The translations under genes were made by a program, and so were the position numbers. A model generated the notes under the pieces. It saw only the letters and a program-made list of their open reading frames with translations, was not told where the DNA came from and searched no databases. From Candidatus Saccharimonadota bacterium (GTDB lineage: Bacteria > Patescibacteriota > Saccharimonadia > Saccharimonadales > JAXHNE01), in contig JAXHNE010000005.1 in assembly GCA_034520885.1 (NCBI GenBank), positions 13,748 through 77,747 on the forward strand: a DNA stretch of 64,000 nucleotides, given 5' to 3'. Below are positions 17,123-64,000 of this stretch, one piece after another (position 1 is the first letter of the stretch; each line of letters starts with the position of its first letter).

Positions 17123-17144
17123 AAGACAACCCCCCGGGACTCTA

Positions 17145-18802: not shown

Positions 18803-19287
18803 ATAGCTGAAAGCTAAATGCTAAGAGCTCAAAGCTGCGCAATTTCCAATTTCCAATTTCTAATTTTCATTCAATTCTCAACCGCCATTTTTTAAACTAG
18901 TGGTAATTTTTTGGAAGATTAATACCAACTCATGAACTTCTTGCCATAATGATCGTAAATCAGCTTTTTTCGAAGGCGTTGCGGTACTAAGCATACGGAG
19001 CCAATGCTGTGTTTCTTGAGCCTCTTTTTTACAGATATGAATTTTATTACGGAAATCTTTTTTAGAGCTGGCCCCGTTCGCTTCCATATAGTTTGCTCCA
19101 ATGCTTGTCGAGGAACGAACCAACTGATTAATCAAAGGCTTGTTTATATTATTTTGTTTAATAACTTTACAGAGCTTAATTACATCTTCCCCAAACCTTG
19201 ATGTTCTTTCCTCTAAATCAAATTTATTGTCTTTTTGAGCCATTGAAGATTGATTGTAAATTGTAAAATTGAAAACTAAAAATTAAC
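18803..19287 (-). mobile_element. Putative heptamer-armed cassette 4 carrying a four-helix-bundle gene
   Basis: The left flank begins with agctgaa agctaaa tgctaag agctcaa agctgcg, then caatttc caatttc caatttc taatttt cattcaa. The right flank (19244-19287) reads ttgaaga ttgattg taaattg taaaatt gaaaact, whose reverse complement gives the caattt-type words. Confidence 0.55.
18878..19243 (-). CDS. Four-helix-bundle protein (23S rRNA IVS protein / Avd-like family), subtype B
   Basis: 121 aa. Motifs KFDLEERTSRFGEDV and QLVRSSTSIGANYMEANGASSKKDFRNKIHICKKEAQET. Confidence 0.85.
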   Translation of the reverse strand: MAQKDNKFDLEERTSRFGEDVIKLCKVIKQNNINKPLINQLVRSSTSIGANYMEANGASSKKDFRNKIHICKKEAQETQHWLRMLSTATPSKKADLRSLWQEVHELVLIFQKITTSLKNGG

Positions 19288-19345
19288 TTCTTGAATGATT
19301 CGATAGGCATACTGACAGCATAACGTATCAGCATTCAGCTGGTGG

Positions 19346-20464: not shown

Positions 20465-20475
20465 CTATTTAAACC

Positions 20476-22644: not shown

Positions 22645-22695
22645 TACAAGAATATTAACATAACGGGTATGCGTTCACACCAAATTTATAAAGTG

Positions 22696-23652: not shown

Positions 23653-23710
23653 TATGACCTCTCAATTGGTAATTATAGTATACCATAATTAGCATACCTT
23701 GTGCTACAAG

Positions 23711-23739
23711 TTGCGCAATGTTTCTGATAGAGGTACAAT
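23711..23739 (+). promoter_or_regulatory. Candidate sigma70-type promoter of the pilin array
   Basis: TTGCGC (23711-23716), a 17-nt spacer, then TACAAT (23734-23739). The ATG at 23750 follows 10 nt later with no Shine-Dalgarno sequence, so the mRNA would be nearly leaderless. Confidence 0.35.
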
Positions 23740-23749
23740 ATTTCCAACC

Positions 23750-24604
23750 ATGAAAGTTAAAAACAAAAAAGTCCTATTCATAACGCTACAGTTTTTGTCC
23801 ATTCTGGGCTTGTTTTTTGTTATTACAGTTCCGAAGGCAAATGCTGCTTTCACGAAAGAAAGAGCGCACCAGGAATACTATGTATGCGATAGCCCGTCAT
23901 ATGTAGAAAATCACCTCCAACGGGACAGTGAGGAAAAGTTCATAAGTGTTGAAAGGCACGATTCTTCCACCGGAGAAAGCACCGTTCATCTTTCATGCCA
24001 TTCAAGTGCCGACCTGATTAAGGTTCAAAGCGGTAGCACTATGCATGATACTTCCCGGTTTGCTGCTTTGTTTACGTGTGGTAGTGGTGAAAATCCGGGT
24101 ACGCTTACTTTTGACGAAGAAAAGATAGCCCCGTCCTCGGGAGCGAAGTACGTAACAGTTAAGTGCAGTAATGGTGATAACTTTGACTACGAGTTAAGTG
24201 GAGCCTATGGCGGGTGTTCGTCTCGGCGAGCCGAAGATTCATGTGATAATCCAACAATAACCAAGGAGCGCGACAACTTTGCCGACACTCTTGAAGAGAA
24301 CGCCAGCCGTGGCGAAAACGCCGAAGCTGTCGAGATAGCATCTGATTGTGAAGAAGGAATAGATCCGGATAATTGTAAAATTACCGACTACCTAAGAACG
24401 TTCACGAACGTACTAATCGCGTTGGTCGGTATAGTAGTGGTTATCATGGTCGTAGTCGGCGGCATTCAATACTCCGCGGCTCGTGACAATCCGCAGGCCG
24501 TACAGGCCGCCAAAGGGCGAATTGCGAATGCGGTGTTGGCGCTAATTGTCTATATATTCATGTCAGCCTTCTTGCAATATATAATTCCCGGAGGAGTCTT
24601 ATGA
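23750..24604 (+). CDS. VirB2/TrbC-like pilin-domain protein 1 with a large Cys-rich N-terminal domain
   Basis: The start is set at ATG 23750 (MKVKNKKVLFITLQFLSILGLFFVITVPKANA, a signal peptide). C-terminal module ...LIALVGIVVVIMVVVGGIQYSAARDNPQAVQAAKGRIANAVLALIVYIF..., i.e. two hydrophobic helices with a polar loop, shared with the next five genes. Confidence 0.75.
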   Translation: MKVKNKKVLFITLQFLSILGLFFVITVPKANAAFTKERAHQEYYVCDSPSYVENHLQRDSEEKFISVERHDSSTGESTVHLSCHSSADLIKVQSGSTMHDTSRFAALFTCGSGENPGTLTFDEEKIAPSSGAKYVTVKCSNGDNFDYELSGAYGGCSSRRAEDSCDNPTITKERDNFADTLEENASRGENAEAVEIASDCEEGIDPDNCKITDYLRTFTNVLIALVGIVVVIMVVVGGIQYSAARDNPQAVQAAKGRIANAVLALIVYIFMSAFLQYIIPGGVL

Positions 24605-25191
24605 TCGGGAGAGTGCTCGATTTTGCCGGTACCTTCAAGGTATATTTGGTCGTGGTTCTTGCTCTGGTTTTTGTTTTATTGTTCCTGGCTCCCAGTGCGA
24701 CTGCTGACCACGGGTTAACCAAAGCCGAATGTAGTGCGCGGGCGAGTAATTTTACCTCCGAAGAGTTCCGTGAATGTAACGAACACGCTGAAAGTGACCC
24801 AGGGGGTCTTGGAACGGCGGGAGGTCGATACGGACAAGGCAGCCCTGAACACTGTACTAGGGAGTCGTCAACTTTTCTGAACTTCCCCACTTGGTATAAA
24901 TATCTTGATCCAACTTTTACGGACGGTGAGTGTAAGCTTGACCTTGATTTTGAAGAGACTTCTACCTACACTGCGATATTCTTTGCAATTTTAGAGATTA
25001 TTCTACGGATTGCCGGTCTAGTGGCGGTTATTTTCGTAATTGTCGGGGGCTTTACGTTTATTACCAGTGACGGCCAACCGGAAAAAGCTAAAAATGCCCG
25101 CTGGACGATATTGAACGCATTAATTGGACTGGCCATTGCTTTGTCGGCGACAGTTTTGGTTAACTTTATTGGGAATAATCTGGGAATATAA
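24601..25191 (+). CDS. VirB2/TrbC-like pilin-domain protein 2
   Basis: ATGA overlap with the previous gene. Signal peptide. C-terminal module AGLVAVIFVIVGGFTFITSDGQPEKAKNARWTILNALIGLAIAL. Confidence 0.75.
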   Translation: MIGRVLDFAGTFKVYLVVVLALVFVLLFLAPSATADHGLTKAECSARASNFTSEEFRECNEHAESDPGGLGTAGGRYGQGSPEHCTRESSTFLNFPTWYKYLDPTFTDGECKLDLDFEETSTYTAIFFAILEIILRIAGLVAVIFVIVGGFTFITSDGQPEKAKNARWTILNALIGLAIALSATVLVNFIGNNLGI

Positions 25192-33364: not shown

Positions 33365-35113
33365 ATGAAAATGGGCTGGGTTTTGGGTTTAGCTACGGTC
33401 TTCACCGCCGTTTTTCTATTGCCGGTTCACGTTGCGGCCGATACTGGCAACACGACTGCAACTACCGCTTCAAATATCCTCGTGAGTGAAGTGCAAAACA
33501 GGGGTGTCGTGGATGGCGAAACGTCCGGAAGCCGGGAGTTTATCGAACTGTATAATCCCACGGAAGAGACCGTGTCGCTTGATGGCTGGCAACTAGTGTT
33601 TTATAACGCCAGCGGCAGCGTGGAACGCGAAGTGGCGACGTTTGAGGACGACGCCGACACGGAGGTGTATTACGAAATATCACCCGACTCATTTTTTGTC
33701 GTAAGCCACGAGGCCTTTTTGCCCGACGCCGACTTTATACTGGACTCCCGTTCGGTTTCCGGTTACTTGAATTATAACGATGGAACGGTTCGTTTGTTTA
33801 ACGCCCAGGACGAGCCGGTCGATCTCATGGGTTACGGTGACCCCGAAGGATTCAATACCAATCCCGCCCCCGCTCCCGAGGAAGACGAATCGCTGAGCCG
33901 CTGTTTCGACGAAAACGGTATCGTGCGAAACACTGGTGACAATTCGGTCGATTTTCTCATAAATGATGCCCCGCTTCCCGGCGAAGGCATAGAGTGCCCG
34001 GACGCTGTGGGAGATCCCGATGACGATAACGACGAGACCTCCGGCGATTCTGACGACCCCGATGACGAGTCTAATGACGACAACGGTGATGATTCTGAGG
34101 ACCCCGATTCTTCAAAAGACAACGACGACGAAAACGAGGATACCGAAAACGAACCTCCGGCCAATACCTGCGAGAAAGTGCGACTCTCGGAAATAGGCGC
34201 CTATCTGGACGAGCAATTCATCGAGGTGTACAACACTTCCGATGAAGCGGTTTCACTAAAAGGTTGCCAGCTGCAAACCAACCGCAGTGACGAAACCTAC
34301 GTTTTTGGTGATAAAACCATGGAGCTTCAATCTTATTCGGCGGTGCTCATCGAGAATACGGAACTCACACTCACCAAAACCACCACCGGCACGGTGTACG
34401 TATTATCGGAGGACGGCTCCGTGGAGGTCGACGAGCAATACTACGAAGACCTAAAATCCGAAACTTCCTGGGCGTGGTTCGGCGACGGCCAATGGGAACA
34501 AACTTTCACCACGACCCCGGGCGGGGAAAACGTCCGGCGGGAACTTCGCCCCTGCCCCGAAGGTAAAAAACGCCACCCCGAAACGCGCAGATGCCGCACC
34601 ATCGAAACGGAAGAATCGTCGCTCAAGCCGTGCGATCCGGATCAAGAACGCAACCCCGAAACCAACCGTTGCCGCAAAATTGACGCGGGCAGCTCCGACC
34701 TCGAGCCGTGCGGGCCGGGCAGAGAGCGCAACCCGTCCACCAATCGTTGCCGCTCCATAGGCGGTGACTCCCGGGAGCTCGTGCCATGCGATGACGACCA
34801 AGAACGCAATCCGGAGACCAATCGTTGCCGACTCATTAACTCGACCTCGGAGCTTAAACCGTGCGGCGAAGGCAGAGAGCGTAACCCCGAAACCAACCGT
34901 TGCCGTAACGTGGCTTCGGCCTCCACGGTTTCGGGTATGGACGTTCGGGACGTGGCCTCCACGAACACGGGGACGCCCACCAGCTGGTGGTTCGCCGGCT
35001 TCATGGTAGCGTTCGCGACCGCGTACGGTTTGTGGGAATGGCGCTACGACATAAAAAACCTGGGAATGCGTTTGAACGAAAAGTTTTCCGTCCGCAAACC
35101 CGGCAGCGGCTGA
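33365..35113 (+). CDS. Lamin-tail-domain (LTD) surface protein with an acidic linker, five Cys-pair repeats and a C-terminal TM anchor
   Basis: Signal peptide. Two LTD-like modules (EFIELYNPTEETVSLDGWQLVFYN; QFIEVYNTSDEAVSLKGCQLQTN). D/E-rich linker. Five repeats of PCxxxxERNPETNRCR. Hydrophobic C-terminal segment WWFAGFMVAFATAYGLW. Confidence 0.8.
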   Translation: MKMGWVLGLATVFTAVFLLPVHVAADTGNTTATTASNILVSEVQNRGVVDGETSGSREFIELYNPTEETVSLDGWQLVFYNASGSVEREVATFEDDADTEVYYEISPDSFFVVSHEAFLPDADFILDSRSVSGYLNYNDGTVRLFNAQDEPVDLMGYGDPEGFNTNPAPAPEEDESLSRCFDENGIVRNTGDNSVDFLINDAPLPGEGIECPDAVGDPDDDNDETSGDSDDPDDESNDDNGDDSEDPDSSKDNDDENEDTENEPPANTCEKVRLSEIGAYLDEQFIEVYNTSDEAVSLKGCQLQTNRSDETYVFGDKTMELQSYSAVLIENTELTLTKTTTGTVYVLSEDGSVEVDEQYYEDLKSETSWAWFGDGQWEQTFTTTPGGENVRRELRPCPEGKKRHPETRRCRTIETEESSLKPCDPDQERNPETNRCRKIDAGSSDLEPCGPGRERNPSTNRCRSIGGDSRELVPCDDDQERNPETNRCRLINSTSELKPCGEGRERNPETNRCRNVASASTVSGMDVRDVASTNTGTPTSWWFAGFMVAFATAYGLWEWRYDIKNLGMRLNEKFSVRKPGSG

Positions 35114-35917: not shown

Positions 35918-36712
35918 CTATCGCTCGTCAAGCTTTCTGCCTGTGAGTGCCTGGCGTGGGTCAGCACCAGCGGGGAGCTGCACTTTGATCGCGACACGTT
36001 GGCCAGGTCTTAGGTCGTGGTGCGGAAGCCGAATGGAATACTGCCGAGGTGATTTCCGCTCGTCTGGAAAGCCGCGAGTGAAATCTCCGGACTTGCCACT
36101 CCACATCTGCATGCCTGGGGTCGGCGAACTCAAGAACCCCAGGTAGTTCGCACTGAGCATGTCGACGGTGCTCGTGACCGCAAACGCAATCTCCTCAGCC
36201 CAAGTCCGAGGCTCGAACCACACGAGTGCGGTAGATGACTCCTCTGCTGACTCAACGGTAACGTTTAGGTTAGGAGCGCTCGGAATCGAGCCGGGGGTGG
36301 CTGGTTCCCCCCTGACCGCAGCGTCGAATGTCTTGAGCCAGTCGGCCTTCGAGAGGCGGGTCAGATCAATGTACAGCCGATCCTCCAGAAAATCTGGCAT
36401 CTTGTCGACCGTACCGATCTTCACCGGCACTATGAAGAACGTTTCCTCTTTGATCTCGCGCATGATCGCCTTACGCAACTCACGAGTTACCCAAGGCTTG
36501 TCAATGGTTACCCGAGACAGGAAAACGAAGAACTTGTCCGTGGTGTTGATTCCTTCGGCGATCCTTCCAAGGAGCGAGTCCCCACCCACAATCTCATAGC
36601 GATCAAGCCATGGCTGAAGGTCCGGCAGTTCGCTTGTCACTACATTGAATACATCATTCACGGCTGCAGCGTCCTCACTGGCGTGGCAGAAAAATGCTCT
36701 TCTTTCGGGCAC
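35918..36712 (-). CDS. TIR-domain protein with an unknown C-terminal domain
   Basis: The N-terminus AFFCHASEDAAAVNDVF...WLDRYEIVGGDSLLGRIAEGINTTDKFFVFLSRVTIDKPWVTRELRKAI fits the bacterial TIR pattern (FxSHAxED ... G ... S ... W..E). The C-terminal ~130 aa are unassigned. Confidence 0.75.
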   Translation of the reverse strand: MPERRAFFCHASEDAAAVNDVFNVVTSELPDLQPWLDRYEIVGGDSLLGRIAEGINTTDKFFVFLSRVTIDKPWVTRELRKAIMREIKEETFFIVPVKIGTVDKMPDFLEDRLYIDLTRLSKADWLKTFDAAVRGEPATPGSIPSAPNLNVTVESAEESSTALVWFEPRTWAEEIAFAVTSTVDMLSANYLGFLSSPTPGMQMWSGKSGDFTRGFPDERKSPRQYSIRLPHHDLRPGQRVAIKVQLPAGADPRQALTGRKLDER

Positions 36713-52361: not shown

Positions 52362-55058
52362 TTAACGGAGGGAGATGACGGTTTCGTCGGATTCGCCGTC
52401 TTTGCCAACGTGTAGGGTGTCGCTATTTTTGCTGTTTTTGGCTGGTTTGGCGGCTGGATTTTTGGCTGCGGACTTTTTGTCGTCTAATTTTGCGCGTGCT
52501 TTTTTGGGTTTTTCCTCCGTTGATTGATTAGCTTTCGGACTCTCTGACTTACCTTTTTTTCTACGACGACGCCGGCGACGCTTTTTCTTCGGCTGCCCAG
52601 GCGTTTCTTTGCTAGCCAGCTCAATAATGCTTTTGGCGCTTTTGTTGCCGTCTTTTGGGGCAGTTGTTTCGGGCGTCGGCTCTTTTTCGAACTTCGTTTC
52701 TCGCGTGGTTTTCGGGGGCGTATCGGCCTGATCTTTAGGTTCGGGGGCAGGGGGTTTGGGCGCTGGTTTGTCCGCGGACTTCTTGGGTGGCTTCTGTAGC
52801 TTATCGATTTTATTGAGTTCACTGCCGTAGCGCTCTTGCATGAAGGCTTCGATGTGTTCACGGTCGGCGGCGAATTGGCGTCGGCTTTGGTCAATGATAG
52901 AGGCGGAGTGGTTTTCGCCGTATTCGGGCAAGTTCAAGGTGGTAGCGGAGAAGGCGGGTTGTTTCTCGCCTTCGATAATCATACTGATGGCGATGTGGCG
53001 GTTATGCATGTGCACGATGTCGTGATCTTCAAAGTGTGGTTCAAAGTATTTTTGCATGACTTTGGCGTCGTCTGCGCTGGTACGGAAGGTAATAATGGAA
53101 CCGACGTTGCCGAACACCGCGTCTTTGACCTCCGGCGTCATTTGCGCGGTGTATTGGTTGGCCACCGTCAGATTTAAGGCGTATTTTCGGGCCTCGGACA
53201 AAATGGTGGCGAAGCTGTCGGTGGCGAAGTTTTGGAACTCGTCAACGTAGAGGTAGAACGGCACGCGCTCACTTGCCTCGATATCCGCCCGGCTCATGGC
53301 GCCCATTTGAATTTTGGTCACCAGCAAGGCACCCAAAAGGCTGGCGTTGTCCTCGCCAATAAGCCCGCGGGAGAGATTGACGATTAAAATTTTGCGCTCG
53401 TCCATGATTTTACGGATGTTAAAACTGCTTTTGGGCTGGCCGATGATGTTGCGAACAATCGGGTTGGCGGTAAAAGCGCCGACTTTGTTTAATACCGGCG
53501 CCACGGCTTCGGCCTGGAATTTGGGGTTCCAGCTGGCGAATTCTACTTGCCAAAAGTTGCGCACCACCGGGTCGTCGACGTAGGTCAGGACTTCGTCGCG
53601 GAATTTTTTATCGGTTAAAATGCGGGTGATATCCAGCATGGTGGATTCCGGATAATCCAAAAGCGCCAGCAAGCTGTAGCGCAAAATGTATTCCAGGCGA
53701 GGTCCCCAGGATTCGAACATGCGTTTTAAGACGCCGATAAGTTCCGACGCCGTGTGGGTTTTGAGTTTGTCGTCCACCACCTCCATGGGGTTGAAGGCGA
53801 TAGGAAAATCGGTGTCCGCGGGGTTGAAGTAAATTACGTCCTCCACGCGATCCGGAGAAATTCGTTTGAGCGTATTCAGGGCGTAATCGCCGTGCGGATC
53901 GATGACCGCGAACCCGTACGGGCTGGGAATGTCGGAAATGGTCAGGAGCTCCAGCAGGGCGGATTTACCTACGCCGGTCTGTCCGATGATGTAAAGGTGA
54001 CGTCCGCGATCCGAACGGTGCACGCCAAAAGGCGTGTGATGTCCACGGAAGTTAGTTGCTGCCAGAGGGCTGACGTGGTCGGTGTTCTCGCCCACGAGAA
54101 TCGGCAAGTTAGCCGGCGGTTCGGCGGTTTTGGCATTGGCCCACAAAATATTGGGCGTTTCCACGTTGGTATGCGGTAAGTGGAATAAACTGGCGACTTC
54201 CTCGATGTTTAAAATAAAGCTTTTACTTAAAGTTCGGTTGGTGTAGGCCTGAATGTGCGCCGGTTTGTTATCAATAAATTTTTGCTTGAATCCGTTTAAA
54301 TAAGTGCTGTTGAACTGCTTATAGCTGGCGATAATGGATTGCAAACGCATTTTGGCTTCCGACGGGGAAGTATTGCCGGCATAGACCAGCCGTACACAAA
54401 CGTCGTAGGCCAGTTTTTGGGCTTTTTCTTCCGCGCCTTTGACGCGGGCGTTTTCGTGTTCGGCCAGTTTTTGGCCGCCGCTGTCTTCCGGTGGAGCCCA
54501 CAGCGCCTTGCCCAGTCCGACACCGCCGCCGCGCATTTTGGCGATGTAACGTTCGCTGGCTTTATGCCAACTGTCCCCGGTGGGGCGTACGATGACTTGT
54601 AGCCAAGCCTCTTCGTCGTCCCGGAATTGGGCCAAGGTAGCAGTGATTGCCGCTAGCGGGTCGACCTCAAAACTTGGGAAGGTTTTAATTGGCAACTGAC
54701 TGGGGCCGGTGAGCGCAATCTCCGCCGCCATGCGGGTCGGGGCAGTATTGGTGCTTAAATCAGCGTAGTCGCTAATTTCGGTAATGTGCACCGTCGGGTA
54801 CTGGGCGTAAATTTGCTCGATGACATAACTTTTTAGGTACGTCGGTACCCACACGTAAAAACCAATACGGCGGTTTTTGACGGCAATTTCGAAACTAATT
54901 TGCTGGCTGGCGTTTTTAAGGAGTAAACCTTGTTTGCCGCCATGCAGCAATCCGTGCAGCGAGGCCAGCATTTGCTCCGCAGCCAACTCCTTTTTTTCGT
55001 TGGTGCGGGGAACTTGCAATAAGAGCACTGTACCATCTGGTGTCGGTGTTTGTGACAT
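52362..55058 (-). CDS. VirD4/TraG-like (coupling-protein-type, HerA/FtsK-superfamily) P-loop ATPase with a long basic C-terminal tail
   Basis: 898 aa. Walker A IIGQTGVGKSALLELL and Walker B FYLYVDEFQNF. The C-terminal ~180 aa are K/P/R-rich (KKKRRRRRRRKKGKS). No N-terminal TM helices are seen. Confidence 0.65.
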   Translation of the reverse strand: MSQTPTPDGTVLLLQVPRTNEKKELAAEQMLASLHGLLHGGKQGLLLKNASQQISFEIAVKNRRIGFYVWVPTYLKSYVIEQIYAQYPTVHITEISDYADLSTNTAPTRMAAEIALTGPSQLPIKTFPSFEVDPLAAITATLAQFRDDEEAWLQVIVRPTGDSWHKASERYIAKMRGGGVGLGKALWAPPEDSGGQKLAEHENARVKGAEEKAQKLAYDVCVRLVYAGNTSPSEAKMRLQSIIASYKQFNSTYLNGFKQKFIDNKPAHIQAYTNRTLSKSFILNIEEVASLFHLPHTNVETPNILWANAKTAEPPANLPILVGENTDHVSPLAATNFRGHHTPFGVHRSDRGRHLYIIGQTGVGKSALLELLTISDIPSPYGFAVIDPHGDYALNTLKRISPDRVEDVIYFNPADTDFPIAFNPMEVVDDKLKTHTASELIGVLKRMFESWGPRLEYILRYSLLALLDYPESTMLDITRILTDKKFRDEVLTYVDDPVVRNFWQVEFASWNPKFQAEAVAPVLNKVGAFTANPIVRNIIGQPKSSFNIRKIMDERKILIVNLSRGLIGEDNASLLGALLVTKIQMGAMSRADIEASERVPFYLYVDEFQNFATDSFATILSEARKYALNLTVANQYTAQMTPEVKDAVFGNVGSIITFRTSADDAKVMQKYFEPHFEDHDIVHMHNRHIAISMIIEGEKQPAFSATTLNLPEYGENHSASIIDQSRRQFAADREHIEAFMQERYGSELNKIDKLQKPPKKSADKPAPKPPAPEPKDQADTPPKTTRETKFEKEPTPETTAPKDGNKSAKSIIELASKETPGQPKKKRRRRRRRKKGKSESPKANQSTEEKPKKARAKLDDKKSAAKNPAAKPAKNSKNSDTLHVGKDGESDETVISLR

Positions 55059-59254: not shown

Positions 59255-59809
59255 TCAAGACTTTTGCTGCTGGGTAAAGTAATTGATTTCGTTGATAACG
59301 TCCAAAAGTGCTTGGGCGCGGGCTTTGTCGTTTTCGATTTTTTGGGCGGCTTCGTAGGCTTCTTTTAACAGGGACTGATCATCCGTGGCCTGAATCATCA
59401 TCATGGTGGTGCGGAACTTTTCTTCCGCGGTTTGGTCCAAATGTGACACTAACGGGGAAAGTTGAGACAAAGCTTGCTGCTTAATCTCTACCAGATTGCC
59501 GGAAGGTGCCGGTTCGTCTTCCGCTTGCGGGGCGGGGTCGGGCGTGCCGTGATCGGTCACCATGTGCTCGGTGTCTTCGTGGTGCGGAATGTTATCCTGC
59601 GGCGCATCGGGTTGTTGTGCGTCCGTTGTAGCCGGTGCCGGATTGGCGTCCACCGGTTGTTGAGTCGCCGGCTGGAACGGTGAGTTTTGCCCGCCCATGG
59701 TCGGCAAATCCGGCGCGCCCCCGTTGTTTTGTGGCTGAGGTTCACCAAAATCCTGGAGGTCGTTTTGTTGTTGAGCATCGTTATTCTTTGAATTTCCAAA
59801 CATTTCCAC
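59255..59809 (-). CDS. Hypothetical protein with a Q/P-rich N-terminus and a helical C-terminus
   Basis: 184-aa ORF. No family recognised. Confidence 0.5.
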   Translation of the reverse strand: MEMFGNSKNNDAQQQNDLQDFGEPQPQNNGGAPDLPTMGGQNSPFQPATQQPVDANPAPATTDAQQPDAPQDNIPHHEDTEHMVTDHGTPDPAPQAEDEPAPSGNLVEIKQQALSQLSPLVSHLDQTAEEKFRTTMMMIQATDDQSLLKEAYEAAQKIENDKARAQALLDVINEINYFTQQQKS

Positions 59810-59920: not shown

Positions 59921-60952
59921 ATGCTGGACGATCTGAAATACATTCACCAAAAGGACGGTAGTGATGCGTTGGGAATCGCCGGCCGGCAAGCCCGTCAACT
60001 GGCGCATGAGTTTACGTTGGAATGGCAACCGGAAAACGAAATAAAAAATGTCGTCCTGGCCGGTATGGGCGGTTCGGCCTTGGCCGGGCTTTTGAGTACC
60101 ACGTGGCCCGATTATCACGTACCCTTTGAGATCGTTCGGGATTATGATATCCCAACGCACGTTAACGACAACACCTTATTTATCGCCTCCAGCTATTCGG
60201 GAAACACCGAGGAAACGTTGTCCGCGCTAGGGCAGGCCGAAGCGGCGGGAGCGCAAATCGTGATCCTGTCCGGCGGCGGAAAACTCATTGAATTGGCCGA
60301 AGAAAAGAGCTATCCCTACGAAGTAATCCCCAAAGTCGAGCAGCCGCGTTTCGCGGTGTTTTACGCGCTCAAAGCTTACGTGACCATACTGGAGCGCGCC
60401 GGGCTAGTAAAAACCACCGAAGCCGAAAAAACCATGCACCGAGCGAGCACATTTATTGCCCGTGCCGTGGAGCAATGGGGCGCGGATCGACCAACGAGTA
60501 AAAATCCGGCCAAAGAACTGGCCTTGGAGTTGGCCGGCAGTTCGCCGGTAATTTACGCCGGGCCGAAATTGTTCCCGGCCGCCTACAAGTGGAAGATCAG
60601 TTTTAACGAAAACGCCAAAAACGTGGCCTGGTGTAACGAGTACCCGGAATTTAACCACAACGAATTCATGGGCTGGACGAGCCACCCGGTAGAAAAACCC
60701 TACAAAGTCGTGGAGCTGCGCAGCAACTTGGAACACCCGCGCACCCAAAAACGTTTTGAGGTCAGCGAACGTTTGCTATCCGGTAAACGTCCCGCTCCGG
60801 AAGTAGTGGAAGTCCAAGGAGAGACCATCTTAGAGCAGCTACTGTGGGCGGTGGCTTTCGGTGATTTCGTGAGCATTTACGTGGCGCTGCTTAACGGAGT
60901 TGATCCGTCACCGGTAAAGTTAATCGAAAAATTCAAAAAAGATTTGGGTTAA
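59921..60952 (+). CDS. Bifunctional phosphoglucose/phosphomannose isomerase family (SIS domain) protein
   Basis: 343 aa. SIS motif VVLAGMGGSALAG...FIASSYSGNTEET. Size and C-terminal region are typical of the PGI/PMI family. Confidence 0.75.
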   Translation: MLDDLKYIHQKDGSDALGIAGRQARQLAHEFTLEWQPENEIKNVVLAGMGGSALAGLLSTTWPDYHVPFEIVRDYDIPTHVNDNTLFIASSYSGNTEETLSALGQAEAAGAQIVILSGGGKLIELAEEKSYPYEVIPKVEQPRFAVFYALKAYVTILERAGLVKTTEAEKTMHRASTFIARAVEQWGADRPTSKNPAKELALELAGSSPVIYAGPKLFPAAYKWKISFNENAKNVAWCNEYPEFNHNEFMGWTSHPVEKPYKVVELRSNLEHPRTQKRFEVSERLLSGKRPAPEVVEVQGETILEQLLWAVAFGDFVSIYVALLNGVDPSPVKLIEKFKKDLG

Positions 60953-60964
60953 TACGAAGAAGCC

Positions 60965-61678
60965 ATGAACGACGCGCGCCACATAAAATCCCTGGGAACT
61001 ATCCTGGGGGTGTGGGCGCATCCGGACGACGAAGTCTTCAGTTGTGGCGGCATCATGGCTTTGGCCGCGGAGAACGGGCAGCGCGTAATGTGCATGACTG
61101 CCAGCCGCGGGGAAGCCGGCGTCCAGGACGAGTCCCGCTGGCCGGCGGAGAAACTCGGCGCCATTCGCACCAAAGAGCTGGAAGCGGCGTACGAGTGCTT
61201 GGGCGCTATCGAGCACGTGTGGTTCGATTATTCCGACGGGAAAGTCGGCGATGTGTCGCTCGCGGAAGGCGAGAAAGTCGTGACGCGCCGTATCGAGGCG
61301 TGTCATCCGGACACTATTTTAACGTTCGGGCCGGAGGGGATGACCGGCCACCCCGATCACCGCGCGGTTTCTGCTTGGGCAACGCGCGTGGGCAAAGAGC
61401 GGGGCATAGCGGTGTATCACGCGGTGCTTACGCCGGAAACGTACGACGCCGACCGCGAAGCCGACGAACAATTCGACATATTTTTTAACATAGAACGACC
61501 GCCGATCGTACAACGTGGAGACTGCGACTTATATATCGATCTTAGTGATAAAACGCTGCAAAAAAAGTGCGCCGCTTTAAAGGCCATGCCCTCCCAAACC
61601 GAATCACTCATAAAAGCCATGGGCGAAGAAAAAGTATGTGATATGAACCGAATCGAGAGTTTCGTAAGGGCTAAATAG
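60965..61678 (+). CDS. PIG-L/LmbE family deacetylase
   Basis: GVWAHPDDEVFSCGG (AHPDDE zinc motif) and TGHPDH. Confidence 0.85.
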   Translation: MNDARHIKSLGTILGVWAHPDDEVFSCGGIMALAAENGQRVMCMTASRGEAGVQDESRWPAEKLGAIRTKELEAAYECLGAIEHVWFDYSDGKVGDVSLAEGEKVVTRRIEACHPDTILTFGPEGMTGHPDHRAVSAWATRVGKERGIAVYHAVLTPETYDADREADEQFDIFFNIERPPIVQRGDCDLYIDLSDKTLQKKCAALKAMPSQTESLIKAMGEEKVCDMNRIESFVRAK

Positions 61679-62186
61679 GCGCGTTTTTCAGGCCGAGCTT
61701 GTACCCAATGTAGGCAAATAATAAATGCATCCCGAACCAGATGATTACTATTTGTGCGCAAAGAATGAGCGTAAGCTCGGCAAAAGGAAGCGCGAACACA
61801 ATTCCGCCAAGGATATAGTCGATTTGATCGAAAGGAAACCACTTTTCACCCGAGGCGACGCCTTTTTGCCGCTTAAAAAAGCTTTCCAGCGCATCGCCGA
61901 GGAGCGCTCCGGCGCCCAACGCGACGCCGATAATAAACGACATTTCCGGAAAATCGGCCGGCGCCAGTAGCTGTTGCCCGTGCCCGACGCCGCCGGCAAT
62001 CAGCGCGCCGCACACCACGCCGCGAATGGTTTTGTTATTACCGAGAATCCGAATGCCGCGAAAGGATTTGCCGAAATCCAGCGGAGTATTCCAACGGGTA
62101 ACGAACGGGATTTTATTGATCAGGACAGGGGCGGCGTTGGCCACGCCGGCCGGCAGGAAAAACCACAGCGCGAAAAGCCAGCTCAT
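61671..62186 (-). CDS. CDP-archaeol synthase (CarS, DUF46) family protein
   Basis: 171 aa, polytopic. LPAGVANAAPVL, PLDFGKSFRGIRILGNNKTIRGV, LGDALESFFKRQKG and FPFDQIDY align block by block with my recollection of archaeal CarS (PIDFGK..G.RILGDGKTWRG, FGDL..SFIKRR.G, DQL). Confidence 0.7.
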   Translation of the reverse strand: MSWLFALWFFLPAGVANAAPVLINKIPFVTRWNTPLDFGKSFRGIRILGNNKTIRGVVCGALIAGGVGHGQQLLAPADFPEMSFIIGVALGAGALLGDALESFFKRQKGVASGEKWFPFDQIDYILGGIVFALPFAELTLILCAQIVIIWFGMHLLFAYIGYKLGLKNAPI

Positions 62187-62842
62187 CCCCGATCTCCCTT
62201 TTTGATTTTCTTTTTGGCGCGGTTAAGCTTGGGGTACAAAAGCGCCCGCATGGACGGGCGATTGGTGATCAACTGGCCGGTTTTGATAAGTTCGACCACA
62301 TTATTTTTGCCGGGCCGCTCGGCAAGATCGCTGTAGGTCTTACCCAGGCCTTTATGGCCATGGGCATCGCTGCTAGCCGCTCCGGGTACGTTATTTATCC
62401 GCGACCATACCAGGGCTTGTTCGCCGCGGTTTTGCAAAAACGCCCGGCCGTTACACACTTCGATTAGGTCAATTTCGGCGGTATGTTTTTCAATCGTTTC
62501 CGGATGCAGTCCTTTGCGAACGGTTTCGAACGGATGGGGGACGTAGACGATCCCGTTTTGTTGTTTGATGGCCGAAATGGTGTCGGCCGGCGTTTGATGG
62601 GGCCGCACCTCATTCGTTAAAAATAAGCCGATAATTTCGCCCTCGGTGGTCATGATTTCTTCGCCCACGATAATGCGATCACCAAGCGCTTCGCGGGCTT
62701 TTTGCGCGAAATCAATACGGTTGTGGTCGGTGATGGCGATGTAATCCAGAACGCCGTCCTCCAGCGTTCGTTGGTACTGTTTCAGGGTGATGCCGCCGTC
62801 GTAGGAGTGTTCGGAATGGGTGTGAAGGTCGGTTTTAAACAT
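62183..62842 (-). CDS. PHP-domain metal-dependent phosphoesterase
   Basis: The start is set at ATG 62842 (MFKTDLHTHSEHSYDGG...AITDHN). It shares 1 nt with the upstream stop and has a 4-nt overlap with the downstream gene. Confidence 0.8.
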   Translation of the reverse strand: MFKTDLHTHSEHSYDGGITLKQYQRTLEDGVLDYIAITDHNRIDFAQKAREALGDRIIVGEEIMTTEGEIIGLFLTNEVRPHQTPADTISAIKQQNGIVYVPHPFETVRKGLHPETIEKHTAEIDLIEVCNGRAFLQNRGEQALVWSRINNVPGAASSDAHGHKGLGKTYSDLAERPGKNNVVELIKTGQLITNRPSMRALLYPKLNRAKKKIKKGDRG

Positions 62843-63486
62843 TAGCCGAGCTTTCGATAAATGGCGAACAAACGGGCGAAGGCGGTGTACCACGCGGTGA
62901 CGGCGATAAGCCCGACTGCCAGGGCCAATTCATTTACGAGTAATCCCACGACCAGCGCGAACATTCTGACTTCATAACGCATAAGGCCGTTTTGAAATAG
63001 CCGATTAACTTGATTGGCCGTGAGTGAGCCGTCCTTGACCGCGGTTTCACCCTTGGCTTTGACATAGCTGACCAACAAAGAGCCGCCACAGGCCGCTACC
63101 ACGAGCGCCGCGATAAGTGCCGGAGAATAATCGCCGACCGGCCGGTTGATGAGTGCGTAGGCCGCCCCGATATATAAAATGACCTCCTTCATACGATCGG
63201 TGCTGGCGTCCAAAAGCATGCCACCGGCGGAGGCCTTTTTTTGCAAGCGGGCCAGTTCGCCGTCCAAGGCGTCCATTAATCCGAAAACTACTAATAACCC
63301 GGCGGCCAAAACGTAAGACCCGGTGGCGATGAAATAGGCAATGGGTACGTGCGCTAATAAACTGGTGACGGTCACCATATTGGGGGTTATACTTCCCCCG
63401 GATAAGCGATGTAGTACGCCAGCGATTTGCTTCACTATGTTACGGACGGCGTTTCTTACGGTTTCTAGTGCTCCGCTCATGGACAC
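62842..63486 (-). CDS. CDP-alcohol phosphatidyltransferase family protein
   Basis: Signature DALDGELARLQKKASAGGMLLDASTDRMKE (D-G-x2-A-R-x8-G-x3-D-x3-D) in a polytopic protein. Confidence 0.85.
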   Translation of the reverse strand: MSMSGALETVRNAVRNIVKQIAGVLHRLSGGSITPNMVTVTSLLAHVPIAYFIATGSYVLAAGLLVVFGLMDALDGELARLQKKASAGGMLLDASTDRMKEVILYIGAAYALINRPVGDYSPALIAALVVAACGGSLLVSYVKAKGETAVKDGSLTANQVNRLFQNGLMRYEVRMFALVVGLLVNELALAVGLIAVTAWYTAFARLFAIYRKLG

Positions 63487-63544: not shown

Positions 63545-64000
63545 TCACGTATTAATACTAAATTCGCTCAATGTTTTTACGGCTTTTCGTACATTTTCTT
63601 CGGCCTTTTCATTTTCTACCACCCCGTTTTTTACATAATCTTTGACTTTGGGGATGGGTATTTCGGCGACGGGGAAAAGTTTTACGCGTAATATATTGAG
63701 TTTTAGCTGGGCTGCGGCCCGCGTTCCGCCCATACCGCCGTAGCCAACAATGGCCGCCGGTTTATTGTGCCACTCGCCAAAGAGCCAGTCGATCGCATTT
63801 TTCAGGGAAGCGGGCGGTCCGTGATTGTACTCCGCGCTGACCAGTATGAAGGCGTCGGAGGCCTTTACCTTTTTTGACCACGTTCGGACGCGTTCGTCCT
63901 CGTACTGTTCGTTGGCCGCGCCGGGAATGGTTTCCTGATTAACGAACGGCAAATCCAGTTCTTTTAAGTCGGCCACCTCGTATTCGGCACCGATGTCGTC
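63545..64000 (-). CDS. NADPH-dependent FMN reductase family flavoprotein; 5' end beyond the window
   Basis: ILVSAEYNHGPPASLKNAIDW is the family motif. The reading frame stays open upstream of the track's GTG (63976) to position 64000 (DDIGAEYEVADLKELDLPF). Confidence 0.75.
   Translation of the reverse strand, partial: DDIGAEYEVADLKELDLPFVNQETIPGAANEQYEDERVRTWSKKVKASDAFILVSAEYNHGPPASLKNAIDWLFGEWHNKPAAIVGYGGMGGTRAAAQLKLNILRVKLFPVAEIPIPKVKDYVKNGVVENEKAEENVRKAVKTLSEFSINT

What the first reader, a model, noticed from the sequence alone, without database searches (positions are those of the whole stretch)
61671..63486. CDP-alcohol phosphatidyltransferase - PHP phosphoesterase - CarS-family operon in a bacterium
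Three overlapping minus-strand genes encode a CDP-alcohol phosphatidyltransferase (DGxxARx8Gx3Dx3D), a PHP-domain phosphoesterase and a protein that aligns block by block with archaeal CDP-archaeol synthase (CarS/DUF46) rather than bacterial CdsA. By analogy with established pathways, CarS would make the CDP-activated lipid. The transferase would then exchange CMP for a phosphorylated head-group alcohol (as in phosphatidylinositol-phosphate or archaetidylinositol-phosphate synthases). Finally, a phosphatase would remove the terminal phosphate. A PHP enzyme as that phosphatase, and an archaeal-type activating enzyme in a bacterium thought to scavenge lipids, would both be notable.
Basis: partly seen in the sequence, partly recalled or inferred. 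Interest (0 to 1): 0.55.

Follow-up and report, generated by a model that had tools for sequence, protein, structure and literature searches.

The report
Saccharibacteria inositol-lipid head-group operon
A tiny lipid-scavenging bacterium carries a tightly coupled three-gene operon, conserved across its phylum, that most likely re-activates scavenged lipid with CTP using an archaeal-type enzyme, attaches inositol phosphate, and removes the phosphate with a phosphatase type not yet linked to lipid synthesis.

Summary
The window comes from a Candidatus Saccharibacteria MAG. Three translationally coupled minus-strand genes encode a CDP-alcohol phosphatidyltransferase (62842-63486), a PHP phosphoesterase (true start 62842, 219 aa) and a CarS-family cytidylyltransferase (61671-62186).

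- **Conservation:** The gene order is kept in 69 of 81 related loci.
- **CarS-like protein:** It has the CarS fold (only PDB match 5GUF, TM 0.74-0.80) and the shared motifs. It scores below NCBI's CarS equivalog cut-off, as do other bacterial members.
- **Transferase:** It resembles only enzymes that use inositol-1-phosphate (AIPS > PIPS > DIPPS), not PgsA or PssA.
- **Context in other lineages:** CarS-like genes are fused to the transferase or to a PAP2 phosphatase. They also sit in operons with DAG kinases, a HAD phosphatase, a PgsA-like paralogue or a PLD/Cls gene.

Best explanation: scavenged DAG or PA is converted to CDP-DAG, then to PI-phosphate, then to PI. The PHP enzyme would be a non-homologous PIP phosphatase.

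Not shown: any enzyme activity, a source of inositol phosphate, or absence of cdsA from this genome.

This is a new variant of a known pathway, widespread rather than unique, and partly anticipated by a 2018 genome paper. Interest is moderate to high.

The parts
62842..63486 (-). CDP-alcohol phosphatidyltransferase of the AIPS/PIPS type. Probable start is ATG 63480; the stop TAA at 62842-62844 overlaps the PHP start by 1 nt. Proposed function: CDP-DAG + L-myo-inositol-1-phosphate -> phosphatidylinositol phosphate + CMP.
   Evidence: - PF01066, E 2.8e-13.
- NCBIfam: AIPS 95 bits, PIPS 73, BT1523-type PIPS 61, DIPPS 41; PgsA and PssA only 15-16 bits.
- Full D72xxD75G76xxA79R80...G89xxxD93xxxD97 signature.
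- Family profile best matches M. tuberculosis PIPS 6H53, E 3.6e-17. S140/K143 align with Mt S132/K135 and R205 with Mt R195. R174 is invariant and probably equivalent to R155 (residue roles from PMC4634129).
62183..62842 (-). PHP-family metal-dependent phosphoesterase, 219 aa. Its start ATG overlaps the CDPOH stop, and its stop TGA overlaps the CarS start by 4 nt. Proposed function: dephosphorylation of the PIP (or PGP) head group.
   Evidence: - PF02811 plus PF13263; CehA/McbA PHP-type metallohydrolase domain, 64 bits.
- AF2 model pLDDT 86.5. Foldseek top matches: TM0559 (2ANU), RNase AM, BAD_1165, PolC PHP domain.
- Invariant H7, H9, D15, H40, E61/E62, H103, C130, D159, H161, and a conserved basic C-terminal helix RPxxRALLYPKYHRLRKK.
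- Sits between the CDPOH and CarS-like genes in 69 of 81 loci.
- Also found in PHP-DAGK_cat-CarS (L069) and PHP-X320-CarS (L087) operons.
61671..62186 (-). CarS-family (PF01864) integral-membrane CTP:lipid-phosphate cytidylyltransferase, 171 aa. Proposed function: CTP + phosphatidic acid -> CDP-diacylglycerol + PPi, standing in for CdsA.
   Evidence: - PF01864, E 1.2e-24. NF003114: 127 bits, below the cut-off of 148.
- ApCarS 5GUF, E 4.7e-12.
- AF2 model pLDDT 93; the only significant PDB fold match is 5GUF, TM 0.74/0.80, rmsd 2.3 A.
- Invariant P12-A-G...N17..P20, G49..K52..G56, G97-D98..S102..K105-R106, and D120-Q121-x-D123; most of these positions are identical in ApCarS in the pairwise alignment.
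- Gene contexts with DAG kinases, PgsA-like, PLD/Cls and phosphatases, plus fusion proteins.
60965..61678 (+). Neighbouring PIG-L / LmbE-family deacetylase. It is convergent and overlaps the CarS-like 3' end by 8 nt. It may be linked to the operon (this family includes GlcNAc-PI and GlcNAc-inositol deacetylases). Membership in the system is uncertain.
   Evidence: - PF02585, E 1.9e-29.
- All NCBIfam equivalogs (BshB, MshB, Mca) score below their cut-offs.
- Clustered as a conserved neighbour (median position immediately downstream of the CarS-like gene) in 37 of 81 loci.
59921..60952 (+). Bifunctional phosphoglucose/phosphomannose isomerase. It is a conserved syntenic neighbour, and a functional link (mannose supply for PI-glycolipids) is speculative.
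   Evidence: - PF10432, E 1.7e-46; TIGR02128 226.8 bits, above its cut-off of 213.9.
- Convergent downstream neighbour in 67 of 81 loci.
- A cupin-type mannose-6-P isomerase ORF lies just downstream of the CarS-like gene (between it and PGI in L010) in 11 loci.

Best explanation
The three genes form one translationally coupled operon. It is a self-contained phospholipid head-group module for a bacterium that cannot make its own acyl chains.

**Step 1 (inferred, about 0.8).** The CarS-family membrane enzyme takes phosphatidic acid and CTP and makes CDP-diacylglycerol. The phosphatidic acid would be scavenged or made from scavenged diacylglycerol. The enzyme thus does the job of the unrelated-looking bacterial CdsA.

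**Step 2 (inferred, about 0.6 for inositol).** The AIPS/PIPS-like CDP-alcohol phosphatidyltransferase exchanges CMP for L-myo-inositol-1-phosphate, giving phosphatidylinositol phosphate.

**Step 3 (inferred, about 0.5).** The soluble PHP metallophosphoesterase removes the terminal phosphate to give phosphatidylinositol. Its conserved basic C-terminal helix may hold it at the membrane. It would be analogous but not homologous to the PgpA-family PIP phosphatase of Bacteroides, and to the PAP2 and HAD phosphatases that sit beside or fused to CarS-like genes in other lineages.

**Shown here:** gene structure, family and fold assignments, motif conservation, synteny, fusions.

**Inferred:** all substrates and products.
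For: **Operon structure**
- 1-nt and 4-nt start/stop overlaps in the window.
- CDPOH>PHP>CarS order in 69 of 81 loci. The PHP/CarS overlap is 4 nt in 40 loci and 1 nt in 11.
- 310 of the 341 pattern-matching stretches found in the one-genome-per-species collection encode a close relative.

**CarS-like protein as a lipid cytidylyltransferase**
- CarS fold and motifs.

**It acts on diacylglycerol lipids**
- Operons CDPOH-DAGK_cat/YegS_C-CarS and CDPOH | PHP-DAGK_cat-CarS (L069).
- DgkA adjacent in L085 and L087.
- L065 reads PgsA-like | CarS-like | PLD/Cls, the classical CDP-DAG branch.
- The only ORFs that E. coli CdsA detects in the window plus 81 loci are the CarS-like genes.
- CPR-enriched cell fractions contain only acylglycerol lipids (PMC7242380).

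**Coupling to the transferase**
- Two independent natural CDPOH+CarS fusion proteins, whose transferase domains are also AIPS/PIPS-like.

**Inositol phosphate as acceptor**
- The top four NCBIfam hits all use Ins-1-P, while PgsA and PssA score 13-25 bits.
- Three PIPS pocket residues (S, K, R195 equivalents) are conserved, and an invariant arginine (R174) probably matches the fourth, R155 (PMC4634129).

**A phosphatase step**
- PHP active-site residues are invariant.
- Other lineages carry a PAP2 domain fused to CarS or a HAD hydrolase beside CDPOH-CarS.
- The PIP phosphatase is unidentified in actinobacteria and archaea (PMC4634129, PMC9385802) and is a PgpA-family enzyme in Bacteroides (PMC9246714). 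This step is therefore known to be filled by non-orthologous enzymes.
Against: - There is no biochemical or lipidomic evidence.
- No inositol-1-phosphate synthase or other inositol-phosphate source was found in the window or in the flanks of 81 loci (Pfam; weak motif test). Whole genomes could not be searched.
- The CarS-like protein and the transferase both score below NCBI's equivalog cut-offs (127 < 148; 95 < 180; 73 < 170), so exact specificities may differ.
- The PHP protein has no close characterised relative. The best are the uncharacterised TM0559 and RNase AM. Three loci have CDPOH-CarS without PHP and three have PHP-CarS without CDPOH.
- Absence of cdsA from this genome is untested.
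- The cultivated oral Saccharibacterium S. epibionticum appears to lack CarS, CdsA and this PHP protein, and keeps only a non-essential orphan CDPOH. The module is therefore not essential for the phylum.
Confidence: 0.55

Rival explanations
1. The architecture is the same, but the acceptor is sn-glycerol-3-phosphate or another phosphorylated alcohol. The operon would then make PGP and PG, with the PHP protein acting as a PGP phosphatase.
For: - No inositol-phosphate source was detected nearby.
- PG is the generic bacterial anionic lipid.
- PAP2 and HAD enzymes associated with CarS-like genes elsewhere belong to superfamilies that include PGP phosphatases (established knowledge of PgpB).
- The transferase is below the equivalog cut-offs for both AIPS and PIPS.
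Against: - PgsA models score only 16-20 bits, against 95-112 for AIPS and 73-90 for PIPS.
- A distinct PgsA-like paralogue exists beside the AIPS-like one in some loci (L063, L014, L065). This implies that the two have different acceptors.
- Residues of the PIPS inositol-phosphate pocket are conserved.
Confidence: 0.17
2. The PHP enzyme is not the head-group phosphatase. It could hydrolyse the pyrophosphate released by the cytidylyltransferase, process a nucleotide by-product, or cleave scavenged host lipids or head groups upstream of CarS.
For: - The closest structural relatives act on nucleic acids or nucleotides or are uncharacterised (RNase AM, BAD_1165, Cv1693, polymerase PHP domains, TM0559).
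- PHP-CarS pairs occur without an adjacent CDPOH in L011, L018 and L028.
- In L069 and L087 the PHP gene lies upstream of a kinase gene and CarS, while the CDPOH is divergently transcribed.
Against: - The PHP protein co-occurs almost exclusively with the AIPS-like transferase, not with the PgsA-like or Cls-associated CarS loci.
- Alternative phosphatases (PAP2 fusion, HAD) occupy equivalent positions in other lineages.
- The two-step chemistry of every known prokaryotic PIP/PGP pathway requires a phosphatase.
- The conserved basic amphipathic C-terminus suggests membrane-surface action.
Confidence: 0.2
3. The module handles isoprenoid or archaeal-type lipid. The CarS-like enzyme would make CDP-archaeol or a CDP-polyprenyl lipid, and the AIPS-like enzyme would make archaetidylinositol-phosphate-like lipid in a bacterium.
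For: - Both membrane enzymes are closer to the archaeal models (CarS, AIPS) than to the bacterial ones (CdsA, PIPS).
- Transferases of related lineages reach 157-166 bits on the AIPS model, whose cut-off is 180.
- The DgkA homologues beside some loci could be undecaprenol kinases, as in Gram-positive bacteria (established knowledge).
Against: - No GGGPS, DGGGPS (UbiA) or G1P dehydrogenase is present in the window or the conserved neighbourhood.
- All bacterial members tested fall below the CarS equivalog cut-off, whereas an archaeal one passes at 174 bits.
- The soluble DAGK_cat kinase, PgsA-like and PLD/Cls contexts point to diacylglycerol lipids.
- Lipids of CPR-enriched fractions were all acylglycerols (PMC7242380).
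Confidence: 0.06

Closest known systems
Bacterial two-step phosphatidylinositol synthesis (Mycobacterium/Renibacterium PIPS PgsA1; Bacteroides BT_1523 PIPS + BT_1525 PIP phosphatase + BT_1526 MIPS)
   Same: - A CDP-alcohol phosphotransferase with the D1xxD2G1xxAR...G2xxxD3xxxD4 signature.
- Conserved inositol-phosphate pocket residues.
- An operon-encoded phosphatase, implying a phosphorylated intermediate (PMC4634129, PMC9246714).
   Different: - The activating enzyme is CarS-family, not CdsA.
- The phosphatase is PHP-family, not PgpA-family.
- No MIPS gene lies in the cluster.
- The transferase is closer to archaeal AIPS than to bacterial PIPS and falls below both equivalog cut-offs.
Archaeal CarS -> archaetidylinositol-phosphate synthase pathway (A. 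pernix CarS 5GUF; M. thermautotrophicus AIPS)
   Same: - Same two enzyme families and the same reaction logic.
- The CarS fold is reproduced (TM 0.74-0.80).
- AIPS is the best-scoring model for the transferase.
- The archaeal AIP phosphatase is also still unidentified (PMC9385802).
   Different: - The host is a bacterium whose relatives have fatty-acid lipids.
- The CarS-like protein scores 127 bits against a cut-off of 148.
- No ether-lipid core genes were seen.
- Gene contexts include DAG kinases, PgsA-like and PLD/Cls, which points to CDP-diacylglycerol rather than CDP-archaeol.
Classical bacterial CdsA-PgsA-PgpA/B/C route
   Same: - CTP activation of a phosphatidate, transfer to a phosphorylated alcohol, then dephosphorylation by any of several non-homologous phosphatases.
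- The L065 locus shows CarS-like paired with PgsA-like and PLD/Cls genes.
   Different: - CdsA is replaced. The only shared feature is the distant CTP-transferase signature (PF01148, 24.6 bits over 60 residues).
- The head group is probably inositol phosphate.
- The phosphatase is PHP-type.
Characterised PHP phosphoesterases (histidinol-phosphate phosphatase HisJ, 3',5'-bisphosphonucleotide phosphatase Cv1693/BAD_1165, RNase AM, TM0559)
   Same: - The (beta/alpha)7 PHP barrel and the full set of metal-binding His/Asp/Glu residues.
- The pAp-type members remove one phosphomonoester from a ring that carries a second phosphate. This is chemically analogous to PIP -> PI (inference).
   Different: - No sequence-level PDB hit with a single sequence. 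The profile hit to TM0559 is only E 3.7e-5.
- A distinct conserved basic C-terminal helix.
- Fixed genomic association with membrane lipid enzymes.
- No lipid substrate is known for any PHP enzyme (own knowledge; one full-text search for PIP-phosphatase terms together with 'PHP domain' found no paper making the link).

Membership tests
CarS / CDP-archaeol synthase (PF01864; NCBIfam NF003114) | Match to the Pfam family model above the gathering score | tested here: met
   87.7 bits against a cut-off of 22, covering residues 4-169 of 171.
CarS / CDP-archaeol synthase (PF01864; NCBIfam NF003114) | Score at or above the NCBIfam equivalog cut-off, meaning the same function as archaeal CarS | tested here: not met
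   127.2 bits, below 148. Other bacterial members score 113-136 bits, while an Altiarchaeales protein scores 173.8.
CarS / CDP-archaeol synthase (PF01864; NCBIfam NF003114) | Five-helix CarS membrane fold | tested here: met
   AF2 model pLDDT 93. The only PDB match with E<=0.001 is 5GUF: TM 0.74/0.80, rmsd 2.3 A, 29% identity.
CarS / CDP-archaeol synthase (PF01864; NCBIfam NF003114) | Conserved cytoplasmic-loop motifs shared with ApCarS (PAxxANxxP; GxxKTxxG; GDxxxSFxKR; DQxD) | tested here: met
   The pairwise alignment to 5GUF and family-invariant columns show P12, N17, P20, G49, K52, G56, G97, D98, S102, K105, R106, D120, Q121 and D123.
CarS / CDP-archaeol synthase (PF01864; NCBIfam NF003114) | Substrate is DGGGP/archaetidic acid, and the gene co-occurs with GGGPS/DGGGPS ether-lipid core genes | tested here: inconclusive
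   None of these genes is in the window or in the conserved neighbourhoods. Contexts instead include DAG kinases, PgsA-like and PLD genes. Whole genomes and enzyme specificity could not be tested.
CdsA / phosphatidate cytidylyltransferase (PF01148; NF008635) | Full-length match to CdsA models | tested here: not met
   PF01148 matches only residues 51-110 at 24.6 bits (cut-off 24). NF008635 scores 18.7 bits against 385. No CdsA structure appears among the fold hits. The protein may work like CdsA without being a member.
PIP synthase / AIP synthase (class I CDP-alcohol phosphotransferases using Ins-1-P) | D1xxD2G1xxAR...G2xxxD3xxxD4 signature | tested here: met
   D72, D75, G76, A79, R80, G89, D93 and D97 are each conserved in at least 90% of the 74 ORFs of the CDPOH cluster; all but R80 are invariant, and R80 is at least 90% conserved, in the curated 15-sequence alignment.
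PIP synthase / AIP synthase (class I CDP-alcohol phosphotransferases using Ins-1-P) | Inositol-phosphate pocket residues (MtPIPS S132, K135, R155, R195) | tested here: inconclusive
   S140, K143 and R205 align to S132, K135 and R195. R174 is invariant and lies at the expected place, but the alignment there is unreliable. K143 is replaced by N in one subfamily.
PIP synthase / AIP synthase (class I CDP-alcohol phosphotransferases using Ins-1-P) | Score at or above the NCBIfam equivalog cut-offs | tested here: not met
   AIPS 95.1 bits, below 180; PIPS 73.4, below 170. These are nevertheless the best families by a wide margin; PgsA scores 16 bits.
PHP phosphoesterase superfamily (PF02811) | PHP barrel with the conserved metal-ligand His/Asp/Glu set | tested here: met
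   PF02811 31.5 bits against 26.4, and PHP_C 23.9 against 21.3. Foldseek probability is 1.00 to several PHP structures. Invariant residues: H7, H9, D15, H40, E61, H103, D159, H161.
Known PIP/PGP phosphatases (PgpA family BT_1525; PAP2 PgpB; HAD PgpC/Gep4) | Homology to one of these families | tested here: not met
   No Pfam or NCBIfam hit to PgpA, PAP2 or HAD for the PHP protein. The proposed function is analogous only.

The most novel reading that the evidence does not exclude
Both membrane enzymes may retain archaeal-type specificity. In that case these episymbiotic bacteria would build isoprenoid or ether (archaetidylinositol-like) phospholipids, or mixed membranes, using an archaeal CarS-AIPS module plus a new PHP-type phosphatase. 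That phosphatase could also be the missing AIP/PIP phosphatase type. The evidence does not exclude this: both enzymes score best against archaeal models, and no specificity was measured. It is disfavoured by the DAG-kinase, PgsA-like and PLD/Cls contexts and by published CPR lipid data.
Probability: 0.06. Interest if true: 0.9.

Novelty: new variant of a known kind. Interest (0 to 1): 0.6.

Why it matters
How Patescibacteria (CPR) obtain and shape their membranes is an open question. A 2024 perspective states that lipid uptake and processing mechanisms have not been identified (PMC11665869).

This operon gives a concrete and testable module. Scavenged diacylglycerol or phosphatidate would be re-activated by a CarS-family enzyme and re-headed, probably to phosphatidylinositol. 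Phosphatidylinositol is otherwise rare in bacteria but typical of the actinobacterial hosts of Saccharibacteria.

If the model is confirmed, three things follow:
- An enzyme family regarded as a hallmark of archaeal lipid synthesis would be shown to serve as the CDP-DAG synthase of a large bacterial radiation.
- The PHP superfamily would be added to the list of phospholipid-phosphate phosphatases. This is a candidate solution type for the PIP/AIP phosphatase that is still unidentified in actinobacteria and archaea.
- The system would provide markers for predicting membrane composition from CPR genomes.

All three genes are small and easy to express, so the proposal can be tested directly.

Tried and rejected
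**Canonical cdsA.** phmmer with E. coli CdsA against all ORFs of the window and 81 loci hit only the CarS-like genes.

**Phylogeny with archaeal CarS.**
- I built an NJ tree of 148 sequences (140 representative clusters, six Saccharibacteria proteins, the window protein and ApCarS). It was star-like, and most sequences lack taxon labels.
- The only labels obtained were Dojkabacteria/Nomurabacteria, Thermoanaerobaculia, Ktedonobacter and Altiarchaeales.
- I therefore used the NCBIfam equivalog score as a proxy instead of clade placement.

**Inositol-1-phosphate synthase or IMPase.** None was found near the operon by Pfam on conserved neighbours or by remembered motif regexes. The latter is a weak test.

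**DUF1361 as a cryptic transferase.** hhalign against the CDPOH profile gave probability 0.5%, and there was no PDB hit. Rejected as a homologue; function unknown.

**The 320-aa protein between PHP and CarS in L085/L087.** No Pfam hit. It could not be submitted for structure prediction.

**Promoter and terminator scan.** It gave nothing above shuffled expectation on the minus strand upstream of the operon.

**Literature.**
- One full-text search combining PIP-phosphatase, PIPS/PgsA1 and 'PHP domain' terms returned no paper linking PHP domains to PIP dephosphorylation. The CarS / CDP-archaeol-synthase searches returned no paper that assigns a function to a bacterial CarS-like protein. The library is incomplete.
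- The Cell 2023 Tn-seq tables show only an orphan, non-essential CDPOH in S. epibionticum, and no CarS or CdsA Pfam accessions.
- The CarS structure paper was not held.

**Soluble-product reading.** A DIPPS-like reading, with a soluble compatible solute as product, was considered. I rejected it because the CDP donor-making enzyme here is an integral-membrane lipid cytidylyltransferase that occurs fused to the transferase.

Full report
**1. What is there**

The window is from a Candidatus Saccharibacteria (TM7, Patescibacteria) MAG. The 171-aa protein is 100% identical to an NCBI entry named 'MAG: CDP-archaeol synthase [Candidatus Saccharibacteria bacterium]'. The same locus occurs on a Logan contig (L001). 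The rest of the window is an origin-proximal region:
- dnaA, dnaN, recF and yidC;
- a type IV secretion cluster;
- ValRS, TsaD, a Mur ligase and GroEL.

It contains no other lipid genes.

On the minus strand at 61671-63486 lie three ORFs:
- A CDP-alcohol phosphatidyltransferase (PF01066, E 2.8e-13).
- A PHP phosphoesterase (PF02811 plus PHP_C).
- A CarS-like protein (PF01864, E 1.2e-24).

The DNA junctions show translational coupling:
- ...GGC TAATG TTT...: the transferase stop and PHP start overlap by 1 nt.
- ...GGGG ATGA GC...: the PHP stop and CarS start overlap by 4 nt, preceded by AAGGGAG.

The PHP protein is therefore 219 aa (start 62842), not the 236-aa GTG-extended ORF.

**2. The three proteins**

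*CarS-like protein.*
- NCBIfam's CarS equivalog model gives 127 bits (cut-off 148). CdsA gives 18.7 bits (cut-off 385).
- phmmer against PDB finds only A. pernix CarS 5GUF (E 4.7e-12). The alignment covers residues 6-170 and conserves the PAxxANxxP, GxxKTxxG, GDxxxSFxKR and DQxD blocks. These positions are invariant among 27 relatives.
- An AlphaFold model (pLDDT 93) has 5GUF as its only significant PDB fold match: TM 0.74/0.80, rmsd 2.3 A.
- It is thus a genuine member of the CarS-like family by sequence and fold, but it fails the 'same function' threshold.
- The other bacterial members tested also fail it: Dojkabacteria 118 bits, Thermoanaerobaculia 123, fusion proteins 113-136. An Altiarchaeales protein passes at 174.

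*Transferase.*
- It has the full D72xxD75G76xxA79R80-x8-G89xxxD93xxxD97 signature.
- Its NCBIfam hits are ordered as follows: archaetidylinositol-phosphate synthase (95 bits), bacterial PIP synthase (73), Bacteroides-type PIP synthase (61), DIPP synthase (41), and far below them ClsA (28) and PgsA, PssA and Pcs (13-16).
- The top four families all use L-myo-inositol-1-phosphate as acceptor.
- A profile of 15 orthologues best matches M. tuberculosis PIPS (6H53, E 3.6e-17). In the pairwise and profile alignments, window S140, K143 and R205 fall on Mt S132, K135 and R195. Those residues are shown by mutagenesis to bind inositol phosphate (PMC4634129).
- The invariant R174 probably corresponds to R155, but the alignment is weak there.

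*PHP protein.*
- A single-sequence search finds no PDB sequence relative. A family profile reaches the uncharacterised T. maritima TM0559 (E 3.7e-5) and V. cholerae RNase AM.
- The model (pLDDT 86.5) matches TM0559, RNase AM, BAD_1165, PolC/DnaE PHP domains, PsfC and Cv1693.
- The canonical metal ligands are invariant: H7, H9, D15, H40, E61/62, H103, D159, H161. A C-terminal basic helix (RPxxRALLYPKYHRLRKK) is also conserved. I read that helix as a possible membrane-surface anchor (inference).

**3. Conservation**

A scan of one genome per GTDB species found 341 pattern-matching stretches, of which 310 encode a close relative of the CarS-like protein. The best 80 are almost all labelled Saccharibacteria or Saccharimonadales. 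A census of 81 loci (including the window) gave these arrangements:

| Arrangement | Loci |
|---|---|
| CDPOH > PHP > CarS | 69, plus 2 where the contig end truncates the CDPOH |
| PHP > CarS without an adjacent CDPOH | 3 |
| CDPOH > CarS without PHP | 3 |
| Other | 4 |

The PHP/CarS junction is a 4-nt overlap in 40 loci and a 1-nt overlap in 11.

Conserved neighbours are as follows:
- A divergently transcribed DUF1361 membrane protein: 65 loci.
- ArgRS: 61 loci.
- A convergent PGI/PMI: 67 loci.
- A PIG-L deacetylase: 37 loci.

In this organism DUF1361 lies about 1.2 kb beyond the window end.

**4. Evidence from other lineages on mechanism**

An all-against-one search of 1.84 billion representative proteins found 1559 clusters with E<=1e-3. 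These include:
- Two independent fusion proteins of CDP-OH_P_transf + CarS-like (P0304, P0383). Their transferase halves are also AIPS/PIPS-like.
- One fusion of a divergent PAP2 phosphatase (DUF212) + CarS-like (P0373).

Gene contexts of more distant CarS-like genes, several on contigs of 0.9 Mb (CPR genome size), are:
- CDPOH - DAGK_cat/YegS_C lipid kinase - CarS.
- CDPOH (divergent) | PHP - DAGK_cat/YegS_C - CarS, with 8-nt and 4-nt overlaps (L069).
- CDPOH (divergent) | PHP - unknown 320-aa protein - CarS | DgkA (L087). L085 is the same without PHP.
- HAD hydrolase (divergent) | CDPOH - CarS (L086).
- PgsA-like CDPOH (divergent) | CarS | PLD/cardiolipin-synthase-like (L065).

The transferases of L085, L087 and L069 score 157-166 bits on the archaeal AIPS model. 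A second, PgsA-like paralogue sits next to the AIPS-like one in L063 and L014.

The CarS-like gene is therefore repeatedly embedded among enzymes that make phosphatidate (DAG kinases), enzymes that consume CDP-diacylglycerol (PIPS/AIPS-like, PgsA-like, possibly Cls), and phosphatases (PHP, HAD, PAP2). This is the pattern expected of a CDP-DAG synthase at a branch point. E. coli CdsA detects no ORF other than the CarS-like ones in the window and 81 loci.

**5. Literature**
- CPR bacteria lack lipid synthesis and are thought to take lipids from neighbours. A 2024 perspective says that uptake and processing mechanisms have not been identified (PMC11665869).
- Lipids of a CPR-enriched size fraction were all acylglycerols (PMC7242380).
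- Starr et al. 2018 predicted, from pathway annotation of one rhizosphere Saccharibacterium, PA -> CDP-DAG -> PGP/CL/PI and PI-mannosides (PMC6031116). They did not note the CarS-type enzyme, the PHP gene or the operon.
- The PIP phosphatase is 'as yet unidentified' in actinobacteria and archaea (PMC4634129; PMC9385802). In Bacteroides it is the PgpA-family BT_1525 (PMC9246714).
- A full-text search combining PIP-phosphatase terms with 'PHP domain' returned no paper that links PHP domains to this step.
- The annotation tables of the cultivated oral Saccharibacterium S. epibionticum list only an orphan, non-essential CDPOH. They contain none of the Pfam accessions for CarS, CdsA, PlsC, PlsY, MIPS or DgkA. 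The module therefore belongs to the larger-genome environmental lineages and is dispensable in some host-associated ones.

**6. Interpretation**

The best-supported model is a head-group salvage and synthesis module:
1. Scavenged DAG or PA is converted to CDP-DAG by the CarS-family enzyme.
2. CDP-DAG is converted to PI-phosphate by the AIPS/PIPS-like transferase.
3. PI-phosphate is converted to PI by the PHP phosphatase.

My step confidences are about 0.8, 0.6 and 0.5.

The rivals are:
- G3P rather than inositol phosphate as acceptor (0.17).
- A different role for the PHP protein (0.20).
- Archaeal or isoprenoid lipid substrates (0.06).

The main gaps are these:
- No enzymology.
- No identified source of inositol-1-phosphate.
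- No whole-genome check for cdsA.
- No labelled phylogeny.

**7. Verdict**

The operon is not an oddity of this genome. It is a phylum-wide, conserved feature that has been overlooked, with variants in what appear from contig size to be other CPR lineages. It is a new variant of the known two-step PI/PG pathway, with two non-orthologous replacements: CarS-family for CdsA, and PHP for PgpA/PAP2/HAD. Interest is 0.6. The finding bears directly on the open question of CPR membrane biogenesis, and it offers a candidate for a missing enzyme class. It remains a prediction, and part of the idea (PI synthesis in Saccharibacteria) is already in the literature.

Noticed in passing
L001:3-662 (same organism, about 1.2 kb beyond window end); L002:5015-5701 and 60+ other loci: A DUF1361 (PF07099) integral-membrane protein is divergently transcribed from the operon in about 65 of 81 loci. 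It stays next to PHP or CarS even where the transferase is missing (L011, L028, L074). It has many invariant polar residues (N49, N90, D97, H100, D112, R166, R169, N171, D174), no PDB relative, and no homology to the transferase. It may be an unrecognised component of the same lipid system.
   Followed up: partly
window 60965-61678 (+): A PIG-L/LmbE-family deacetylase is convergent with the CarS-like gene and overlaps it by 8 nt. It is a conserved neighbour, typically immediately downstream of the CarS-like gene, in 37 of 81 loci. The family includes GlcNAc-PI and GlcNAc-inositol deacetylases, so it could act on a glycosylated inositol lipid. It scores below all NCBIfam equivalog cut-offs.
   Followed up: partly
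window 59921-60952 (+); L010:8516-8956: An archaeal-type bifunctional PGI/PMI is a convergent neighbour in 67 of 81 loci. In 11 loci a cupin-type mannose-6-phosphate isomerase ORF lies just downstream of the CarS-like gene (between it and PGI in L010). This is compatible with mannose supply for PI-mannoside-like glycolipids, as proposed by Starr 2018, but it may be mere synteny.
   Followed up: no
P0304, P0383, P0373 (representative-library proteins): Natural fusion proteins exist: CDP-OH_P_transf + CarS-like (336 and 353 aa) and divergent PAP2 (DUF212) + CarS-like (310 aa). They come from unlabelled metagenome contigs.
   Followed up: partly
L087:5052-6014 and L085:6049-7011: A conserved 320-aa protein with no Pfam match sits between PHP (or the divergent CDPOH) and CarS-like, overlapping the CarS start. 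Its sequence has kinase-like blocks (VVKEGR..., IQEFVKG, FIDTRW). It may be a novel lipid or head-group kinase, taking the place of DAGK_cat in L069.
   Followed up: partly
L065:7283-9755; L063:6486-7157; L014:6047-6664: Some genomes carry a second, PgsA-like CDP-alcohol transferase next to the CarS-like gene. In L065 there is also a PLD/cardiolipin-synthase-like gene. This suggests that CDP-DAG made by the CarS-like enzyme feeds more than one head-group branch.
   Followed up: partly
L083:5215-5769, L084:7001-7555 (Ktedonobacter sp.): CarS-like genes also occur in large-genome Chloroflexota (Ktedonobacteraceae). There they stand alone next to HSP20 and stress genes, without a transferase or PHP gene. 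Their role is unclear.
   Followed up: no
window 59255-59809 (-): A 184-aa protein has an acidic, Pro/Gln-rich, low-complexity N-terminal half and a conserved C-terminal roughly 80 residues. It has no Pfam match and is conserved at the same relative position in about 60 of 81 loci.
   Followed up: no
window 964-2364 (+): A Pup-ligase family (PafA/Dop-like) protein is encoded in a Saccharibacterium. By my recollection this system is best known from Actinobacteria, which are also the usual hosts of Saccharibacteria.
   Followed up: no
window 11049-25191 and 52362-55058: The window carries a type IV secretion / conjugation-like gene set: TraG/VirB4-like ATPases, a PrgI-family protein, two T4SS pilins, and a VirD4-like coupling protein. 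It also encodes a phage-tail-lysozyme + VanY cell-wall hydrolase. A TIR-domain protein lies at 35918-36712 and a lamin-tail-domain protein at 33365-35113.
   Followed up: no
window 63545-63976 (-) and L001:796-1634: In this genome an ArsR/HTH_20 regulator and an NADPH-dependent FMN reductase are inserted between DUF1361 and the operon. An FMN-reductase homologue immediately upstream of the operon turned up in only a handful of other loci (for example L004, L024, L034, L035, L054). It is probably unrelated to the lipid genes.
   Followed up: no
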